Positions 28,542 to 37,202 of a stretch of DNA of 64,000 nucleotides are shown here, one piece after another. The notes beneath the pieces were generated by a model. It was not told the DNA's origin and ran no database searches. It saw nothing but the letters and a program-made list of their open reading frames with translations. A program made the translations under genes and the position numbers. The first letter of the stretch is position 1. Each line of letters begins with the position of its first letter. Source of the stretch: Escherichia phage vB-Eco-KMB37; sequence record OR525700; one strand, given 5' to 3'.

Positions 28542-28973
28542 TTAATCAGTGAAAATTACGCTTACATCTTCTTTAGAAAAGAGTTTATGATCTTCACCTT
28601 TTGTCTCAAGAGTTTCATACAGGCTAAGAAGTTCTGAAACATCTTTCTCTACCAGTTTCTTCAATGTTGCAATTTTCTGTTTGCGACTCTTAATACGTTC
28701 AGCTACAACCTTACGCTGGTATCCGGCAGTACGATAACCTGAGAAAGTTACACCAGTAAGGCTTGCAGTTACAGGATCGTAATGACGTTCAATCTGAAAC
28801 TTATTAAAAGGTACAGCGTCATCACGAATAATCTTACCGCCATTACTTACTTGACGAAGACCAGTAACTTGTTCCAGTCGTGCCATAGAAATCTTTGGAG
28901 ACAGACCAGAGTCCAGGTTCATACCATTGTTAATCAGTGCTTTCAGGGTGATTTTGCTGTTCAGTGTACTCAT
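28542..28973 (-). CDS. hypothetical protein
   Basis: 143 aa; start at 28973 preceded by GGAGGAA RBS; 44 bp overlap with the 3-prime end of the methyltransferase gene. Confidence 0.45.
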   Translation of the reverse strand: MSTLNSKITLKALINNGMNLDSGLSPKISMARLEQVTGLRQVSNGGKIIRDDAVPFNKFQIERHYDPVTASLTGVTFSGYRTAGYQRKVVAERIKSRKQKIATLKKLVEKDVSELLSLYETLETKGEDHKLFSKEDVSVIFTD

Positions 28974-29661
28974 TTAGTCGTTCCTCCGCTTGCTTAAAAA
29001 TATTTACATCGGCTTCACAGCCTAAGTATTCTCTACCTGTTAAAAGTGCCGCAACTTGTGTTGTTGCACTTCCAGAGAAGAAGTCTAAGACTACATCTCC
29101 TTCGTTGGTGTGTATATTAATAAGGTCACAAAACAAAGTCAAGTGTTTTTGTGTTGGATGAAAACGATCTGCTCCTTGATAGATAGGATACTCAAACACA
29201 CCCTTATGGTAGGAAGCATTGAAGGTTGGTTTCGAACCTTTAACACAAACAATAGCCATCTCTTTAGCGTTACTAAGGTAGTTAACACCACTGTTGATGG
29301 GTACAGGGTTTGTTTTAATCCATTCGATAGTACGGAACATACGAAAACCAAGCGGTTCAAGGATTTCACGTAGCTCTTGGATCTTCCAGATATCATACCA
29401 AACTATGCAAGTACCACCTTTTCTAAGCACCCTGTAGGCTTCTTTGAATACTTCTTTAAAGTAAGGAATATCTACAACATCCCAGTCACCAAAGTTGTAA
29501 GATACACGGAATCTATCCGTATCTTTTCCAGTAGGCTCTCCAGACTGAAAATTTGTGTCACGAGAAATAGCATATGGTGGGTCAGTAAGAATCAAATCTA
29601 CACTATTGCTTTCGAGGGTTTGCAGGTAGTTTAATGCGGTGTTGTTTACAAATTCGCTCAT
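28930..29661 (-). CDS. DNA methyltransferase, N6-adenine/N4-cytosine beta class (orphan)
   Basis: 243 aa; DPPY motif (LILTDPPYAISRD) near N-terminus and FxGxG AdoMet motif (VLDFFSGSATT) near C-terminus; RBS AAGGAG; no adjacent restriction endonuclease. Confidence 0.8.
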   Translation of the reverse strand: MSEFVNNTALNYLQTLESNSVDLILTDPPYAISRDTNFQSGEPTGKDTDRFRVSYNFGDWDVVDIPYFKEVFKEAYRVLRKGGTCIVWYDIWKIQELREILEPLGFRMFRTIEWIKTNPVPINSGVNYLSNAKEMAIVCVKGSKPTFNASYHKGVFEYPIYQGADRFHPTQKHLTLFCDLINIHTNEGDVVLDFFSGSATTQVAALLTGREYLGCEADVNIFKQAEERLNEYTEQQNHPESTD

Positions 29662-29675
29662 TATATCTCCTTCAA

Positions 29676-29699
29676 AGAAAAGGAGCCGTTAGGCTCCTT
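29676..29699 (-). terminator. intrinsic terminator hairpin
   Basis: AAAAGGAGCC-GTTA-GGCTCCTT on plus strand; on the minus strand the stem is followed by TTTTCTTTG; near-identical stem to the hairpin at 28509-28540. Confidence 0.55.
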
Positions 29700-29721
29700 A
29701 TATTCACACAATATTTAACTA

Positions 29722-30669
29722 TTAGAAACAGTGCAGGAAGTTTCGACCATACTGCAAACCAATAGGAGCAAATGGGATATCATCATCGAAATCTTGAACA
29801 ACAGGTTCTGGTTCTTTCGGTGCTGGCTCTTTCTTCTCTACTTTTTTAGTTTCTTTCTTAACTTCTTGTACTGGGGTAGACATTCCACGGATAGCAGCAG
29901 CTACTTTATCAGACAAAGCAAGAACTTCACGAGCAGCTTCAATAATCTCTTCTGCCGTTACAGTTTTACCTGTATGATCACGACAAGCGTTAAGAATTGC
30001 GTGTCCAACTGAAGCACCAAGATCATAGTCAGTCACATCAACGCCACGATCTTTAGCAATTTCTGCTTTCAGAGTAACAGTTGCAGATTGTACCACACCA
30101 GCCAAGTCGAAAGCATCACCTTTCACACCAGCACGTAGAAGCTCCAGAGCGCCGTTTACAGCGTGTCCTGTTTCAATCCCTACGGTATCACGTTTTTTGT
30201 AGTTAGGCTTACTACCTTCGTTATTAGATGGCTTATTTCCACCTTTTGAAGAAGATTGTGCTTGCTGAACACCTTCTGTTGAAAGAATAGTGATTTTACC
30301 TTTAGAGGAATTGTAGTATGTTTTGCCATTCCATTCAGAAGGTTTAACATCCATAGTTAGTTCTACACCTTTTTCGATAGTAACCCACTTATCACCATCT
30401 TTAACTTGCAGGTTTTCATGTTCTGGATGCAGTTTAACTTCACCTAGGCTAACCCAAACACCTTTATCATCAGCACCAGCACCTTTCTCTTTAATAAGCA
30501 GGGATGCTTTGTGAGTTGATTCAATTTTCTTATCTGGCTGACCTGCAACCTTAATATAAGAGACTTTCATTTCATCAAACTTATCTAGTTTGACATATTC
30601 AACGATACCTTCAGCCCAGAATGCTTCTTTTTTAGTACGACGGTCGATTTCAGAATTAATTACTGGCAT
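29722..30669 (-). CDS. putative single-stranded DNA-binding protein with E. coli-type acidic tail motif
   Basis: 315 aa; contains DFDDDIPF (the canonical SSB C-terminal tail) 18 residues before the actual C-terminus, which also ends in Phe; lysine-rich linker before the motif; RBS GAGGAGAA. Confidence 0.45.
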   Translation of the reverse strand: MPVINSEIDRRTKKEAFWAEGIVEYVKLDKFDEMKVSYIKVAGQPDKKIESTHKASLLIKEKGAGADDKGVWVSLGEVKLHPEHENLQVKDGDKWVTIEKGVELTMDVKPSEWNGKTYYNSSKGKITILSTEGVQQAQSSSKGGNKPSNNEGSKPNYKKRDTVGIETGHAVNGALELLRAGVKGDAFDLAGVVQSATVTLKAEIAKDRGVDVTDYDLGASVGHAILNACRDHTGKTVTAEEIIEAAREVLALSDKVAAAIRGMSTPVQEVKKETKKVEKKEPAPKEPEPVVQDFDDDIPFAPIGLQYGRNFLHCF

Positions 30670-30685
30670 AAATTCTCCTCTATAA

Positions 30686-31084
30686 TTACATTACTTTAAC
30701 ACAAAACTCTCGTAAAAGAGTAGCGTCAGTTTCTTCCAACAGGTATTTACCAAGACCAATACCAAATCCTATTTCACCACTTTCAAAATGGAGGATTTGT
30801 ATCTTTTCTCCACCAAGGTTAATTACTTTTGCTTTTCCAGGATTATCCAAAACATCTCGTATTGTATCCTGTAGTAACATAAGTTCACGTTTTGTGATAG
30901 TGGTTTCAGATATCTCTTTGTTTTCTACTCTCACTGTTAAACGGTTGTATCCACCAAAGAGACATAGTATTTGAATAAAAAAGGTATTATCTTGAGGTTC
31001 AACATCTTTTTTAGTTAGCTCAAGACGATTAGTTTCTCTACTGTAGAACGTCTCGACTAAGATTTTAGAACGATTATCTGTCAT
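30686..31084 (-). CDS. hypothetical protein
   Basis: 132 aa ORF in the replication arm; no motif recognised. Confidence 0.4.
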   Translation of the reverse strand: MTDNRSKILVETFYSRETNRLELTKKDVEPQDNTFFIQILCLFGGYNRLTVRVENKEISETTITKRELMLLQDTIRDVLDNPGKAKVINLGGEKIQILHFESGEIGFGIGLGKYLLEETDATLLREFCVKVM

Positions 31085-31127: not shown

Positions 31128-31742
31128 TTAAATTTTAAATTCTTCACTGTTAAATGAATCCAGTGTACGTACTTCTGGTTCTTTGGGAATGAAAACGTCT
31201 TTTACAAAGCGGAACATGGGGAAACGTTCTGCCATTTTACGGACGTGTGCTTCTTTACCTGTGTATCGGTGATTAATAGTACAAATATTAGTTTTCAGTG
31301 CAAATTCAAAATCTGGATGATATACATAATTTTGACCATCCCAGTAACACAAGCAAATAGCTACATCAAAGTTCCATACGATTTCACTGCGTACACCTTC
31401 TTCCATAATCATAAAGTTAAACTTAAGATCTTTATAGTATGCTTCAAATACCCATTTCAAATGTGGTAGTTCGGCATAAGTGTGTTCTGTTTGCTTAGTA
31501 AGTTGTTTAACATTACGTGCACCAACACCCAACATCAAAAATTTCTCTACTAATACGAGTGTATTGTGGTTAGGCATACGCAAGTAAATGTCAATATCTT
31601 GTGCAGGTTTCTCTAATCGCCAATCACGTACAGCGCCGCCAGCGACAATTGCAAACGGATCTACCAGTTGGCACATACGTAATACTTCTAAAGCTCGTAC
31701 TTTTTGATCTTCAATATTCATATTTTCTCCTATCGTTTCCAC
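31128..31742 (-). CDS. nucleotidyltransferase, CCA-adding / poly(A) polymerase head-domain family
   Basis: 204 aa; GGAVRD motif followed by DIDIY (G-G-x-V-R-D ... D-x-D catalytic signature of the Pol-beta-like tRNA nucleotidyltransferase family). Confidence 0.55.
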   Translation of the reverse strand: METIGENMNIEDQKVRALEVLRMCQLVDPFAIVAGGAVRDWRLEKPAQDIDIYLRMPNHNTLVLVEKFLMLGVGARNVKQLTKQTEHTYAELPHLKWVFEAYYKDLKFNFMIMEEGVRSEIVWNFDVAICLCYWDGQNYVYHPDFEFALKTNICTINHRYTGKEAHVRKMAERFPMFRFVKDVFIPKEPEVRTLDSFNSEEFKI

Positions 31743-32326
31743 TCTTTGTGTTGTTCTACATGCTCAAGCATTTCATTATATAGTGCTTTAAGATGTGGAA
31801 CAACTCTTTCATCTTCAGTTTCAAAGAATTTTGTAAGCTGTTCTGCCTTAGCTTTCAACCAGCAAAGATGCGCTTCAATTTCAGTATTAAAACGTCCCAG
31901 CGTTATAACACGTCCATCACGTTGAATATGGGCTTTATACTTTTTACGATCTTTTTCGTAACTACAGCCTACCATAGTTCCATGAGATCTTTTACTTACT
32001 CTATAAGCTAAGAACTTGTTAAGATCTCCTGTTACTAAAAGACAGGTATCGGGAGAGTAAACCCTCCCTCCTATAATATCTTTATCAAGTTCTAAGTTTT
32101 CCCAGTTATCCCAAGTTTGTAACCAGGAGTAGAAATTGGAGAACAACTTCCATTCTTCGCAAACCGTCACCCCATTATAACAAGGATCACGTTCTTGTTG
32201 ACAAGGGGAGTAACACCTCCCCAACATAGCCATCCATTTCATATAATGAGGTGTTAGTTTCCTACTGCCAGGTAGTGTACTTTCACCTTCCAAATCATTA
32301 ATACCTTCACCATATACTGTAAGCAT
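31730..32326 (-). CDS. AP2-domain DNA-binding protein (homing-endonuclease-associated type)
   Basis: 198 aa; N-terminal W/C-rich motif (YMKWMAMLGRCYSPCQQERDPCYNGVTVCEEWKLFSNF) and C-terminal AP2-like segment (YKAHIQRDGRVITLGRFNTEIEAHLCWLKAKA); adjacent to DNA polymerase. Confidence 0.4.
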   Translation of the reverse strand: MLTVYGEGINDLEGESTLPGSRKLTPHYMKWMAMLGRCYSPCQQERDPCYNGVTVCEEWKLFSNFYSWLQTWDNWENLELDKDIIGGRVYSPDTCLLVTGDLNKFLAYRVSKRSHGTMVGCSYEKDRKKYKAHIQRDGRVITLGRFNTEIEAHLCWLKAKAEQLTKFFETEDERVVPHLKALYNEMLEHVEQHKEWKR

Positions 32327-35429: not shown

Positions 35430-37202
35430 TTAATAAGAACCAGCAGAAATATTTTCTGGGTTACTTGTGTATTGATCGTAATCGTGAAGTGTAGCTGTTT
35501 TAATCTCATAGAAGAAACTACCTGCTGCACCAGTCTCTGAGAACTCACGGTTCTTTAGAATGTAGCAATATGTGCGGTTACGTTCCATAGGATCTTCAGC
35601 TTGTTTATCACGCTCCAGCGCAATTGTGATACCAGCACCTTTAGCAAGGAAGCTACTACCCATTGCATCATCTTCTACAATATGTTCATTACTATTGTTA
35701 GAAGACTTTTTAACGTGTGAAATTACAACAATGGTTATTGCGTACTCTTTCATAATGCGTTTCAGCCACGTCGCAAGTTCCTCTTGTTGTGACACGTCCA
35801 TACCAGAAAGCAAGTCAGAATAAGGGTCGATAACAAGAATGGTTACTCCGAAATAAATAATCATTTCCAGAACCTTCTCTTTAATCACATCTACGTTAGC
35901 TCCACGATCATCACAAACATAGAAACGTGGTGTTCCATCTTCTCGTTCGTAAAAATCACGAATCTTTTCTTCATTATCTTTTAAAATCTTTTCCTTCTCT
36001 TCTTTCGTTTTACGGTGAAGAGGGATATGCAAGAATGAAGACAGTAAGTTACGAGAATACTTCTTATACGTTGCCTCCAAAGATAAAATACCAAGAGTAT
36101 GTTCTGGGTGTGCAAGAATAATGTGTTTCGTAATCTCGTTAACCAACAGTGTCTTACCGATACTTGTTTTTGCAAGTATAACAGTAATTTCTTCTTCTAC
36201 CAAGCCTCCACCTAACATATTAGAAGCAACACGCATGAATGGAGGAAGGGTGATCATTTTAGCTTCCAGGCATTCCAAGGCTGCTTCATACAGTACGTTA
36301 GAAGCATAAACACCAGCAGGTGTGTACAGTTTAGCTTTGAAAAAGCGATCAATAAAATGATCAATTTTTCCTTCTACTAGTGCCTGGTTAGGATCTTTAA
36401 CATCCGTTAGTTCCATCACGTAAACTTTATTACGTGGTAAGATTTTAACACATTTCTCAACTGCTGCACGTCCAGCTTCATCATTATCCATACATAGAAC
36501 AATCTTTTTAAATTGATCTAAGAATTTATAACGATGTTGAAGCTGCTTATGCAGAGATGTTTCGCCACAAGTACCAGATACTACAGCAGGAACAGGATAT
36601 TTACCACCCTTGTTATAATCTTTTAGCATCTGTGTTGCAGCCAGCATATCGTGTTCACCACCAACGATTAGAATAGTACCGCTGTGGTTACGATATTTAA
36701 ACTCCCCAAAAAGATCACAATCCTTTCCTGTTTCACCGATAGGATGTGAGAAATCTTTTGGATCGATACGTTGTTTATACCCAGCAATATTGTAATCTTT
36801 AGTTGTAGGGTACAGTGTTGAAATTACTTCGCCAGTAGCTTCATCGTACATATAACGTACACCGAAAGGCTTAGAGATATCTTCACGAATACCGCGATAA
36901 CCTTTTGGATTAGTTCCAGTGCTGGCTTTTAGTTTATCATGTACTTCTGGATTAAACTCACTACCCAAGATATCCTCCTCTTCAATTTCTTCGCCGTGTG
37001 CATTTAACCATTTTTGATCAGGGATAGTAAAGCCACAAGAAAAACAATGTGCGCCTCGATGGTCTTCATCGGCATCTAAGCCATATACCATCAAATTGTT
37101 TTGTGATCGATCACGCCCTCCTTTCATACAACGAGGACACCCAGTATGTCCTTCTTGACTTAGATCAATGTTATACCCATATTTATTTACAACATAAGAC
37201 AC
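35430..37202 (-). CDS. DNA primase-helicase (zinc-finger/TOPRIM primase fused to DnaB-like helicase)
   Basis: 590 aa; N-terminal CPRC...CFSC zinc motif, TOPRIM-like region (IVGGEHDMLAA, CMDNDEAG), Walker A (AKTSIGKT) in C-terminal half; GTG start with AGGAG RBS. Confidence 0.75.
   Translation of the reverse strand: MSYVVNKYGYNIDLSQEGHTGCPRCMKGGRDRSQNNLMVYGLDADEDHRGAHCFSCGFTIPDQKWLNAHGEEIEEEDILGSEFNPEVHDKLKASTGTNPKGYRGIREDISKPFGVRYMYDEATGEVISTLYPTTKDYNIAGYKQRIDPKDFSHPIGETGKDCDLFGEFKYRNHSGTILIVGGEHDMLAATQMLKDYNKGGKYPVPAVVSGTCGETSLHKQLQHRYKFLDQFKKIVLCMDNDEAGRAAVEKCVKILPRNKVYVMELTDVKDPNQALVEGKIDHFIDRFFKAKLYTPAGVYASNVLYEAALECLEAKMITLPPFMRVASNMLGGGLVEEEITVILAKTSIGKTLLVNEITKHIILAHPEHTLGILSLEATYKKYSRNLLSSFLHIPLHRKTKEEKEKILKDNEEKIRDFYEREDGTPRFYVCDDRGANVDVIKEKVLEMIIYFGVTILVIDPYSDLLSGMDVSQQEELATWLKRIMKEYAITIVVISHVKKSSNNSNEHIVEDDAMGSSFLAKGAGITIALERDKQAEDPMERNRTYCYILKNREFSETGAAGSFFYEIKTATLHDYDQYTSNPENISAGSY

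What the first reader, a model, noticed from the sequence alone, without database searches (positions are those of the whole stretch)
29722..30669. SSB-like protein with an internal E. coli-type DFDDDIPF tail followed by an 18-residue extension
The acidic motif DFDDDIPF matches the bacterial SSB C-terminal tail used to recruit replication and repair partners, but here it is followed by 18 more residues (APIGLQYGRNFLHCF) that again end in Phe. The N-terminal body does not obviously resemble the E. coli SSB OB-fold. The protein could be a phage SSB that recruits host SSB-interacting proteins, a decoy that titrates them, or a gene whose original stop codon was lost.
Basis: partly seen in the sequence, partly recalled or inferred. 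Interest (0 to 1): 0.55.

Follow-up and report, generated by a model that had tools for sequence, protein, structure and literature searches.

The report
Capped SSB tail spread by endonuclease
A coliphage replication protein carries the E. coli SSB docking tail followed by a conserved 15-residue "cap" that recurs on many unrelated phage replication proteins, is under strong selection, and in related phages travels with a homing endonuclease gene, so it is a real and apparently undescribed peptide module, not a lost stop codon.

Summary
The ORF (29722..30669, minus strand, 315 aa) is real. It contains DFDDDIPF at residues 293-300, identical to the last 8 residues of E. coli SSB. The extension that follows is 15 residues, not 18.

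The window is a Justusliebigvirus-type myovirus, and the gene lies in its replication operon. The predicted structure has one OB fold, a four-helix bundle and a disordered tail. The family is PHROG 4477. A 2026 preprint calls its rV5-type member Bas52_0087 an SSB-like trigger of the DRT10 defence.

The same cap follows an acidic tip on canonical SSBs, several other phage DNA-binding families and a primase-helicase. It never occurs without a tip.

Between the window and phage Mt1B1_P17, the cap has dS about 1.0 and dN 0.

In near-identical phages, cap plus a Zn-finger homing endonuclease is a presence/absence cassette whose left junction is at the Phe codon. The window keeps the cap and an 11-codon endonuclease stub.

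What the cap does is unknown. It removes the free Phe carboxylate that host partners are reported to anchor.

The parts
29722..30669 (-). Whole gene: 315-aa SSB-like protein of the PHROG 4477 family
   Evidence: ORF. PHROG 4477 match E 2.2e-101, with the profile ending at residue 300. At least 50 phage genomes are >=99% identical over residues 1-315.
30265..30669 (-). Residues 1-135: predicted OB-fold domain
30190..30264 (-). Residues 136-160: low-complexity disordered linker
   Evidence: pLDDT 43-67; poorly conserved.
29884..30189 (-). Residues 161-262: four-helix bundle, the most conserved part of the family, with internal repeat TG.ETGHAVNGA / LGASVGHAILNA
   Evidence: Helices 163-179, 186-208, 215-230 and 239-260, pLDDT 89-97. 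Invariant G164, G168, G218, G222, A228. dN 0.125 versus 0.34 for the OB domain. Aligns to residues 252-408 of Bas52_0087; the DRT10 escape mutation D252V corresponds to D161.
29794..29883 (-). Residues 263-292: K/E/P-rich intrinsically disordered linker
   Evidence: pLDDT 48-61; dN 0.58, unconstrained.
29770..29793 (-). Residues 293-300: DFDDDIPF acidic tip, identical to the E. coli SSB C-terminus but internal here
   Evidence: dN 0.
29725..29769 (-). Residues 301-315: APIGLQYGRNFLHCF, the conserved 'cap' (subtype A)
   Evidence: Present in 21 of 100 family members, in 42+6 viral contigs on other protein bodies and in 46 cluster representatives of 1.84 billion. dS 1.04, dN 0 versus phage Mt1B1_P17. 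Disordered in both AF2 runs.
29715..29750 (-). 11-codon stub (MVETSCTVSNS*) in the +1 frame: remnant of the start of a Zn-finger/HNH homing endonuclease ORF, with its ATG inside the Tyr307-Gly308 codons
   Evidence: Mt1B1_P17 (L006) has MVETSCIASKVCFKCG... at the same place. The two sequences diverge at the SSB stop codon.
29680..29699 (-). Intrinsic-terminator hairpin AAGGAGCC-TAAC-GGCTCCTT + T-run ending the replication operon
   Evidence: The same hairpin follows the SSB stop in L002 and follows the HNH gene in L004 and L006.

Best explanation
The gene encodes the phage's SSB-type replisome protein. It consists of one OB fold, a family-specific four-helix bundle, a flexible linker and a copy of the host SSB acidic tip. 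The extra 15 residues are not an accident. They are a conserved short linear motif (a 'cap', typically A-P-[IV]-G-L-Q-Y, two or three variable residues, then a hydrophobic end) that is only ever found directly after a [D/E]x[I/V/L/T]PF tip at the extreme C-terminus of phage ssDNA-binding and replisome proteins.

Shown:
- The peptide, not the DNA, is what is conserved.
- It is as old as the gene body in this lineage.
- In enterobacterial myoviruses it is gained and lost together with a free-standing Zn-finger homing endonuclease gene. That gene's ORF starts inside the cap codons, and its conserved body begins on the stop codon.
- The window's lineage has lost the nuclease and kept the cap.

Inferred:
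- The cap originated as a functional add-on to SSB tips.
- A homing endonuclease family that targets tip/cap-coding DNA then carried it, by co-conversion, onto other tip-bearing genes.
- Mechanistically, the cap makes Phe300 an internal residue. This abolishes the alpha-carboxylate that host partner pockets are reported to anchor. The composite tip+cap therefore probably changes which partners dock: it may gate or weaken classical host SSB-partner binding, add a second hydrophobic contact for a conserved host or replisome partner, or both.
For: Identity and context. Fold. Independent report of the family as SSB-like.

Cap conservation and distribution:
- 21 of 100 family members carry it, down to about 30% identity.
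- It also occurs on PHROG 44 canonical SSBs, PHROG 7364, PHROG 3284, a body weakly matching PHROG 24909, a PHROG 239 primase-helicase and further bodies.
- It is always C-terminal and always follows a tip.

Selection:
- Window versus L006: 6 synonymous and 0 non-synonymous changes in 15 codons. dS is 1.04 against 0.86 for the body, and dN is 0 against 0.34 (OB) and 0.125 (helix bundle).
- Third-position entropy is 0.95-1.8 bits with positions 1-2 almost fixed.
- Caps on unrelated bodies differ mostly at third positions.

Cassette behaviour:
- L006 and L011 are 99.3% identical for 1,884 nt, up to within one base of the end of the Phe codon.
- Among 60 listed rV5-like genomes, 31 match residues 1-423 (with cap); most of these list an endonuclease gene under the match, the rest being unannotated or showing an extra unnamed ORF. 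The other 29 match only 1-408 and list none under the match.
- The RudolfGeigy / WalterGehring / EmilHeitz allelic series shows 7-9 differences in the last 24 nt of the tip codons, against at most 4 in any other 24-nt window.
- The endonuclease body starts on the stop codon in every cap-linked case examined.
- There is a degradation series: full gene, a stub of roughly 35-48 aa of HNH similarity (L026, L046), and the 11-codon stub in the window.

Requirement for the free carboxylate: PMC10164576.
Against: No biochemical data exist for this protein or for any capped tip, so ssDNA binding and partner binding are inferred. The partner of the cap is unknown. AF2 gives no structure or intramolecular contact for it, and nothing in the PDB resembles it. 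The invariance of APIGLQY in the DNA-pattern sample is partly by ascertainment, although the family-based sample is not. The dN/dS figure for the window's own cap rests on six substitutions. Most homologues work without a cap (78 of 100), so it is dispensable for the core function. Endonuclease genes also sit at this site without a cap (L027, L038, WalterGehring), and most subtype-B caps have no endonuclease. The direction of causation between cap and endonuclease is therefore not settled. DRT10 is reported to restrict Stephanstirmvirinae as a group, which argues against the cap simply abolishing the tip-related trigger.
Confidence: 0.6

Rival explanations
1. Neutral scar. The 15 codons are only the 5' end of a homing-endonuclease cassette (ribosome-binding region, start codon, first codons of the nuclease) that fused in frame to the SSB gene. 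After the nuclease was deleted, the read-through peptide persisted without any function of its own.
For: In this family the cap co-occurs with the endonuclease. The nuclease ATG lies in the cap's Tyr-Gly codons and a stub of the nuclease ORF survives in the window. The breakpoint between near-identical phages is at the Phe codon.
Against: At dS about 1 the cap has dN 0, as tight as the tip itself. The observed changes are synonymous in the SSB frame and non-synonymous in the nuclease frame. 18 distinct subtype-B caps, found on canonical SSBs and several other bodies, have no endonuclease nearby yet keep the motif. A single nonsense mutation would restore a normal tip, yet at least 50 genomes of this clade keep all 315 codons.
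Confidence: 0.12
2. The cap serves the endonuclease. The peptide is a docking site on SSB (or on the helicase-primase) for the cassette's own Zn-finger nuclease, bringing it to ssDNA and replication forks or restraining it. On this view the cap is selected as part of the selfish element, not for the phage.
For: The cap is tightly linked to one particular N-terminal Zn-finger module even where the nuclease domain differs: HNH in Mt1B1_P17 and GAP31, another domain in EmilHeitz. The WalterGehring nuclease has a different N-terminal module and sits there without a cap. The cassette has placed tip+cap on a helicase-primase in GAP31.
Against: The window clade and most subtype-B carriers have a conserved cap but no such nuclease nearby, and none was found anywhere in this 64-kb window. 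Without the nuclease the peptide should then decay, and it has not. However, the time since the nuclease was lost in the window lineage is unknown.
Confidence: 0.12
3. Protective cap or insulator. The cap exists to stop the phage protein's host-like tip from engaging host SSB partners (ExoI, RecQ, PriA and others) or tip-linked immune surveillance, while retaining the acidic tail's intramolecular role. It does not bind anything itself.
For: The free alpha-carboxyl is described as one of the most important contacts for partner binding (PMC10164576). An uncapped family member is required for DRT10 activation, in a pathway modulated by ExoI. Several other defence systems are reported to sense phage SSBs.
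Against: Simple blocking would not need a 7-residue near-invariant core conserved across hosts from Escherichia to Vibrio and Pseudoalteromonas; almost any extension would do. DRT10 is reported to protect against Stephanstirmvirinae, the window's subfamily, as well. Per-phage values were not available.
Confidence: 0.12
4. Degron or processing signal. The hydrophobic C-terminal end (…HCF, …NCM, …YAL) targets the protein for proteolysis, or the Phe-Ala bond is cleaved to release a normal tip at a chosen time.
For: All caps end in small-then-hydrophobic residues and are disordered. Such ends can act as protease tags (general knowledge, not tested here).
Against: No evidence for cleavage or instability. 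The conserved core APIGLQY lies next to the tip, not at the end, which is not expected for a C-terminal degron.
Confidence: 0.04

Closest known systems
E. coli SSB C-terminal tip (SSB-Ct, DDDIPF) and its partner-docking mechanism
   Same: Identical 8-residue sequence DFDDDIPF, preceded by a disordered linker and an OB-fold DNA-binding domain. Many family members copy up to 14 residues of the host tail (SNEPPMDFDDDIPF).
   Different: The motif is internal here: Phe300 is followed by 15 more residues, so the alpha-carboxyl that partner pockets anchor is absent. The OB domain has no detectable sequence similarity to PF00436. There is also an extra four-helix bundle.
Bas52_0087 (QXV84166.1) of Escherichia phage RudolfGeigy, the 'SSB-like' trigger of the DRT10 defence (bioRxiv 10.64898/2026.04.29.721553)
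   Same: Same protein family. BLASTP of the window protein against bas52_0087 gives E 2.4e-15 (helix bundle plus tail) and 2.8e-14 (OB). Both share the four-helix bundle, disordered tail and FDDDIPF-type tip, and have the same position in a PolA replication module.
   Different: Bas52_0087 has two OB folds (408 aa), ends exactly at IPF and has no cap. The preprint does not mention capped alleles or the endonuclease polymorphism.
Acidic Phe-terminated tails of T7 gp2.5 (SSB) and gp4 (primase-helicase) that dock on the T7 DNA polymerase (textbook knowledge, recalled, not tested here)
   Same: The same tail module appears on both an SSB-type protein and a gp4-type primase-helicase in phages with a PolA-type polymerase (GAP31, L090/L091/L095). 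The protein ends in an aromatic or hydrophobic residue.
   Different: In the window only the SSB-like protein has it. The final residues are hydrophobic, not acidic. The same cap occurs in phages that appear to lack their own polymerase (40-56 kb contigs), which argues against a phage polymerase as the universal partner.
Free-standing phage homing endonucleases that sit beside conserved replication genes: I-KsaII in Staphylococcus phage polA, and T4 SegG next to gene 32 (recalled, not tested)
   Same: Presence/absence polymorphism among near-identical genomes, a recoded target next to the insertion, and a modular DNA-binding plus nuclease architecture.
   Different: Here the element's ORF starts inside the coding sequence of the neighbouring gene, and it travels with a selected peptide extension of that gene. 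The window retains only an 11-codon stub.

Membership tests
Bacterial-type SSB (Pfam PF00436) | Sequence match to the SSB OB-domain profile | tested here: not met
   No Pfam family at E<=1. No PDB sequence hit at E<=10. tblastn of the E. coli SSB OB domain against the window gives no hit.
Bacterial-type SSB (Pfam PF00436) | OB-fold DNA-binding domain | tested here: met
Bacterial-type SSB (Pfam PF00436) | Acidic tip DDDIPF at the extreme C-terminus with a free Phe carboxylate | tested here: not met
   The motif is present at 293-300 but is followed by 15 residues.
Bacterial-type SSB (Pfam PF00436) | Cooperative ssDNA binding and homo-oligomerisation | not testable with these tools
   Needs purified protein (EMSA, SEC-MALS).
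PHROG 4477 / Bas52_0087-like SSB-like proteins | Profile match across the helix bundle and tail | tested here: met
   E 2.2e-101. 100 homologues found. BLASTP to bas52_0087 gives E 2.4e-15 and 2.8e-14.
PHROG 4477 / Bas52_0087-like SSB-like proteins | Four-helix bundle with conserved TG..GHA.N.A / YD.GASVGHA.LNA motifs | tested here: met
   The preprint's Fig. S6 legend describes the same bundle.
PHROG 4477 / Bas52_0087-like SSB-like proteins | Position in the primase-helicase / PolA replication module | tested here: met
PHROG 4477 / Bas52_0087-like SSB-like proteins | Required for DRT10 activation | not testable with these tools
   Shown genetically only for Bas52_0087.
Free-standing homing endonuclease cassette (PHROG 2340-type Zn-finger/HNH) | Intact endonuclease ORF next to the target gene | tested here: not met
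   The window has only the stub MVETSCTVSNS* (29715-29750). No homologue was found anywhere in the window. The ORF is intact in L004, L006, L023, L068, L077, L079 and GAP31.
Free-standing homing endonuclease cassette (PHROG 2340-type Zn-finger/HNH) | Presence/absence polymorphism with sharp junctions in otherwise near-identical genomes | tested here: met
   Met in relatives: L006/L011 at 99.3% identity, and the rV5-like series.
Free-standing homing endonuclease cassette (PHROG 2340-type Zn-finger/HNH) | Recoded (cleavage-resistant) target sequence in element-bearing alleles | tested here: inconclusive
   There are 7-9 differences in the last 24 nt of tip codons against at most 4 in any other window. 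This is consistent with a recoded target, but the cleavage site is unknown.
Free-standing homing endonuclease cassette (PHROG 2340-type Zn-finger/HNH) | Site-specific cleavage of the empty allele and homing in mixed infection | not testable with these tools
   Needs enzyme assays and phage crosses.
T7 gp2.5/gp4-type polymerase-docking tails | Acidic tail ending in an aromatic residue on both the SSB and the primase-helicase | tested here: not met
   The window primase-helicase (35430..37202) ends ...NPENISAGSY with no tip. The feature is met only in other phages (GAP31, L091).

The most novel reading that the evidence does not exclude
The cap is a previously unrecognised short linear motif that converts the universal bacterial SSB tip into a different composite docking signal. 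It would re-target phage SSBs and helicase-primases to a specific conserved host or replisome partner, or shield them from tip-linked host nucleases and immune surveillance such as the ExoI/DRT10 axis. It would be disseminated among unrelated replication genes by a homing endonuclease family that homes to tip-coding DNA and uses the cap codons for its own translation start. In other words, a selfish element acts as a vehicle for a functional protein tag.
Probability: 0.35. Interest if true: 0.8.

Novelty: new variant of a known kind. Interest (0 to 1): 0.62.

Why it matters
The SSB C-terminal tip is the central hub through which bacterial genome-maintenance enzymes find ssDNA. Its free terminal Phe carboxylate is regarded as essential for that docking. 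A conserved, selected class of phage proteins in which the tip is deliberately internalised challenges the assumption that a phage DDDIPF means host-partner recruitment. The 2026 DRT10 work makes that assumption for this very family.

The data also provide a ready-made natural experiment. BASEL phages that are 97-99% identical differ by no cap (Bas52, Bas48), endonuclease only (Bas51), or cap plus endonuclease (Bas49). Stephanstirmvirinae such as this window carry cap only. That series makes the effect of the cap on partner binding, replication and defence triggering directly testable.

Separately, a homing endonuclease that overlaps and extends the coding sequence of its neighbour, and appears to move a peptide tag between an SSB and a helicase-primase, is an unusual way for a selfish element to remodel host-gene function.

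Tried and rejected
1. Downstream partner gene. I first suspected the window's 143-aa ORF (28542..28973) would be the gene that co-occurs with the cap. It does not: the downstream genes in L004 and L006 are unrelated HNH nucleases.

2. Single conserved neighbour for all capped SSBs. Rejected: neighbours vary, with MT-A70 methylase at +10, RdgC-like at +9 to +11, HNH at -1 to -28, and others. Methyltransferase adjacency is frequent but spans different methylase families, so I did not pursue it as a binding partner.

3. Cap younger than the gene body (recent horizontal acquisition in the window lineage). Rejected: dS of the cap (1.04) is about that of the body (0.86).

4. Cap conservation explained by the overlapping nuclease frame. 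Rejected: the substitutions are synonymous in the SSB frame and non-synonymous in the +1 frame.

5. Intramolecular docking of the cap. Not seen: a second AF2 run with only capped homologues still gave pLDDT below 50.

6. Cap detached from a tip. Relaxed DNA scans and an exhaustive profile search found none.

8. Literature search for the motif strings found nothing. The HK620 SSB paper concerns an ordinary terminal tail.

9. Capped canonical SSBs in E. coli genomes: essentially absent.

10. Resemblance of the cap to clamp-binding (QL[SD]LF), PIP-box or FtsZ C-terminal peptides was considered from memory. The spacing does not fit, so these were not adopted.

11. A +1 frameshift producing an SSB-nuclease fusion at the TAA-G junction was considered. 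There is no slippery sequence, and an upstream ATG was identified in the cases where the start was examined, so I did not adopt it.

12. Per-phage DRT10 sensitivities of capped versus uncapped BASEL phages could not be extracted, because the data are only in a figure.
Full report
OBSERVATION. The ORF exists as stated: 29722..30669 on the minus strand, ATG start, 315 aa, ending ...KEPEPVVQDFDDDIPFAPIGLQYGRNFLHCF. DFDDDIPF occupies residues 293-300. It is identical to the last eight residues of E. coli SSB, which I checked against PDB chain 1eqq_A (…SNEPPMDFDDDIPF). The extension is 15 residues (nt 29725-29769), not 18. No Pfam family and no PDB sequence matches the protein. The only strong profile hit is PHROG 4477, 'unknown function' (E 2.2e-101), and that profile ends exactly at residue 300.

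WHERE IT IS. The window is about 98.6% identical to Escherichia phage alia and relatives (Justusliebigvirus; genomes of about 147 kb). At least 50 deposited phage genomes encode the same 315-aa protein at >=99% identity. It is mostly annotated 'hypothetical' and occasionally 'SSB'. The gene lies near the end of the replication operon: primase-helicase, PolA-type polymerase, nucleotidyltransferase, a conserved 132-aa ORF, then this gene. An intrinsic-terminator hairpin follows at 29699..29680. A Dam-like methyltransferase and a 143-aa ORF come after the hairpin. Close relatives L002, L004 and L006 lack those two genes.

WHAT THE PROTEIN IS. AlphaFold2 with a 44-sequence alignment gives mean pLDDT 81.8. 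The model has two confident domains and a disordered tail:
- an all-beta domain (residues 1-130);
- a four-helix bundle (163-260);
- disordered segments at about 136-160 and 263-315.

An April 2026 preprint describes Bas52_0087 of phage RudolfGeigy as 'SSB-like'. It reports two OB folds, a four-helix bundle, a disordered C-terminus and an FDDDIPF 'C-tip'. The gene is required for activation of the DRT10 defence, a pathway modulated by ExoI (SbcB). I confirmed that bas52_0087 is a homologue of the window protein (BLASTP E 2.4e-15 and 2.8e-14 for two segments). Its escape mutation D252V aligns with the window's near-invariant Asp161. The SSB-like nature of the family is therefore supported, and already reported. 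ssDNA binding has not been shown for any member.

THE EXTENSION IS A CONSERVED MOTIF. Of 100 homologues, 78 end at the IPF. Another 21 carry 14-17 further residues, and one has a single extra residue. These extensions are not random. About 15 of the 21 have the core A-P-[IV]-G-L-Q-Y and the rest have close variants (for example SPLGLQY, ASLGLQY, APIGLPY). A hydrophobic end follows, and the motif persists at about 30% overall identity.

A degenerate DNA pattern for IPF-AP[IV]GLQY found 42 viral contigs, and a relaxed pattern added 6 more. The carriers include:
- canonical E. coli-type SSBs, with OB domains 53-85% identical (PHROG 44);
- PHROG 7364 SSBs;
- PHROG 3284;
- a body weakly matching PHROG 24909;
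- a gp4-type primase-helicase (PHROG 239, E 3.5e-163).

An exhaustive profile search of 1.84 billion cluster representatives found 46 matches. All are at the extreme C-terminus, all follow a [D/E]x[ILVT]PF tip, and they sit on still more bodies. The cap was never found without a tip.

It is rare in cells. Only 8 of about 185,000 species genomes carry it (Vibrio, Pseudoalteromonas, Oceanisphaera, Providencia, Glaciecola and others). The canonical-SSB form is essentially absent from 5,426 complete E. coli genomes.

Two subtypes are visible. Subtype A has 15-17 residues ending [HY][AC][ILF]; the window belongs here, and its carriers are enterobacterial myoviruses. Subtype B has 14 residues, roughly P[AQ]LL[NML]C[MI], and is found mostly on canonical SSBs. 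No paper in the searchable library contains the motif strings, and no PDB chain matches the cap.

SELECTION. Between the window and L006 (Escherichia phage Mt1B1_P17; proteins 63% identical), the 15 cap codons differ at six sites, all synonymous. That gives dS 1.04 and dN 0. The comparison values are OB domain dS 0.86 / dN 0.34, helix bundle 0.86 / 0.125, linker dN 0.58 and tip dN 0. With about 24% of sites synonymous, six of six synonymous changes has a probability of about 2e-4 under neutrality. The cap is therefore as old as the gene body in these lineages and as constrained as the tip.

The changes are non-synonymous in the overlapping +1 frame, so the constraint is on the SSB frame. Across all capped loci, third-position entropy is 0.95-1.8 bits while positions 1-2 of the core are almost fixed. 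This is partly by ascertainment. Near-identical caps on unrelated bodies differ mainly at third positions, for example 7 of 8 differences between rV5-type L097 and canonical-type L063.

LINK TO A HOMING ENDONUCLEASE. In relatives with a subtype-A cap, the next gene is often a 142-207-aa nuclease with an N-terminal Zn-finger module (C-x-K-C-G…EFYKH…DGH-x-NKCK-x-C). Among distinct subtype-A caps with enough downstream sequence, 6 have the nuclease and 8 do not; for subtype B the split is 1 (a stub) versus 18. The nuclease falls in PHROG 2340, 'endonuclease'. Its C-terminal half resembles the region annotated I-KsaII in Staphylococcus phage polA, and rV5-like genomes annotate their version as a 'putative homing endonuclease'.

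In every cap-linked case examined, the nuclease's conserved K-x-C-x-K-C-G begins on the SSB stop codon (T-AAG). Its ATG lies inside the cap codons, often in the Tyr-Gly codons (TATGG).

The same terminator hairpin follows the SSB stop in L002 (no cap), the nuclease gene in L004 and L006, and the cap stop in the window. These are three allelic states at one site.

L006 and L011 are 99.3% identical for 1,884 nt, up to within one base of the end of the Phe codon, and unrelated beyond it.

Within rV5-like Vequintavirus (gene 96-100% identical), 31 listed genomes match residues 1-423 with the cap. Most of them have an endonuclease annotated under the match; the remainder are unannotated or show an extra unnamed ORF. 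The other 29 match only 1-408 and show no endonuclease under the match. The BASEL phages give a clean series:
- RudolfGeigy/Bas52 and CarlMeissner/Bas48: tip, then stop.
- WalterGehring/Bas51: recoded tip (FDDSIPF), stop, and a nuclease with a different N-terminal module 9 nt later.
- EmilHeitz/Bas49: tip (FCDDIPF) + cap + nuclease, as a 652-nt insert.

In both nuclease-bearing alleles the last 24 nt of tip codons carry 7-9 differences from the empty allele. No other 24-nt window in the gene has more than 4. The cassette therefore appears to bring its own tip codons.

In Cronobacter phage GAP31 the same nuclease (mis-annotated gp25) overlaps the end of the helicase-primase gene, which ends DFDNDTPF-APIGLQYANHAIYAL. 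Related contigs have the capped helicase-primase without the nuclease.

A degradation series exists: full nuclease, then stubs of roughly 35 aa of HNH similarity (L026, L046), then the window's 11-codon stub MVETSCTVSNS*. That stub matches the start of the Mt1B1_P17 nuclease (MVETSCIASKVCFKCG) up to the stop codon. No intact copy of either nuclease type exists in the window.

SYNTHESIS. Shown:
- The gene is a member of an SSB-like family with a host-type tip.
- The extension is a conserved, selected peptide that always rides on a tip.
- In this group of phages, cap and endonuclease form a gain/loss cassette whose left junction is at the Phe codon (the right junction is defined only in the rV5-like series).
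- The window lineage has lost the nuclease and kept the cap.

Inferred: the cap is an independent functional add-on. It is conserved in many lineages with no nuclease nearby. A homing endonuclease family that exploits the conserved tip/cap-coding DNA has probably spread it by co-conversion, even onto a helicase-primase.

Mechanistic inference: partner pockets for the SSB tip bury the Phe side chain and anchor its alpha-carboxyl on a 'basic lip', described as one of the most important contacts (PMC10164576). In the window protein that carboxyl is a peptide bond. Classical docking should therefore be weakened or altered, and the composite tip+cap probably has its own specificity. The cap stays disordered in two AF2 runs, as expected for an intermolecular linear motif. 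I could not identify the partner.

RIVALS.
- A neutral scar or lost stop codon conflicts with dN 0 at dS about 1 and with the nuclease-free subtype-B carriers.
- A docking site for the cassette's own nuclease fits the linkage to one Zn-finger module, but not the long-term conservation where no such nuclease is nearby.
- A pure blocking cap fits the carboxylate argument and the DRT10/ExoI story, but does not explain a near-invariant 7-residue core. DRT10 is also reported to restrict Stephanstirmvirinae.
- A degron or processing signal is untested.

COMPARISON AND NOVELTY. It works like an SSB with a partner-docking tail, and it is a member of PHROG 4477 / the Bas52_0087 family. It is not a member of PF00436 by sequence. 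It fails the defining 'tip at the free C-terminus' criterion of bacterial SSBs. The SSB-like fold and the tip of this family are already reported (preprint, 2026). I did not find the cap, its distribution across unrelated proteins, its selection signature, or its coupling to a homing endonuclease described anywhere in the searchable literature. I rate it a new variant of a known kind.

Noticed in passing
window 31730..32326 (-): A 198-aa HNH endonuclease ORF (PHROG 953, E 5.8e-74) lies between the nucleotidyltransferase and the PolA polymerase gene. Phage Eryne (L001) has only a 31-aa ORF at that position, so this is a second patchy homing-endonuclease-type insertion in the same operon. Some relatives are annotated with split or intein-containing polymerases.
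   Followed up: partly
window 28542..29661 (-): A Dam-like N6/N4 methyltransferase (28930..29661) and a 143-aa PHROG 20244 ORF (28542..28973) lie after the operon terminator. They are absent in relatives L002, L004 and L006, where convergent tail-fibre genes follow directly. Methyltransferase genes of several families also lie within 1.5 kb downstream of many subtype-B capped SSBs. Whether this is more than synteny was not tested.
   Followed up: partly
window 29884..30189 (-), residues 161-262: The four-helix bundle contains an internal sequence repeat (TGIETGHAVNGA / LGASVGHAILNA) with invariant Gly/His/Asn. It is the most conserved domain of the family. The DRT10 escape mutation D252V of Bas52_0087 aligns to the window's Asp161. 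Its function (oligomerisation or partner binding) is unknown.
   Followed up: partly
window 30686..31084 (-): A 132-aa ORF (PHROG 16560, unknown function) immediately upstream is conserved next to the SSB-like gene in all close relatives, whatever their cap status (L002, L004, L006).
   Followed up: no
L096 2519..3016 (Cronobacter phage GAP31, GAP31_256): This gene is annotated 'baseplate wedge protein gp25' but is a Zn-finger/HNH endonuclease overlapping the end of the helicase/primase gene. It is an annotation error in the public record.
   Followed up: yes
L074 (IMG/VR contig 3300020046_003745, 4 kb): A 635-aa ORF joins a portal-like N-terminal part to a Q-rich linker plus tip plus cap. It is probably an assembly chimera or a recombinant and was not pursued.
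   Followed up: no
phage records MG065635, MG065644, MG065655 etc.: About 20 records named 'Campylobacter phage' are 98-99% identical in this gene to rV5-like coliphages, which suggests mislabelled or contaminant genomes.
   Followed up: no
PDB 2xel, 2jhr, 3mnq, 7b1a: Dictyostelium myosin-2 motor-domain constructs end in SNEPPMDFDDDIPF, the E. coli SSB tail, apparently as an engineered tag. This is a reminder that database hits to the tip alone do not imply SSB function.
   Followed up: no
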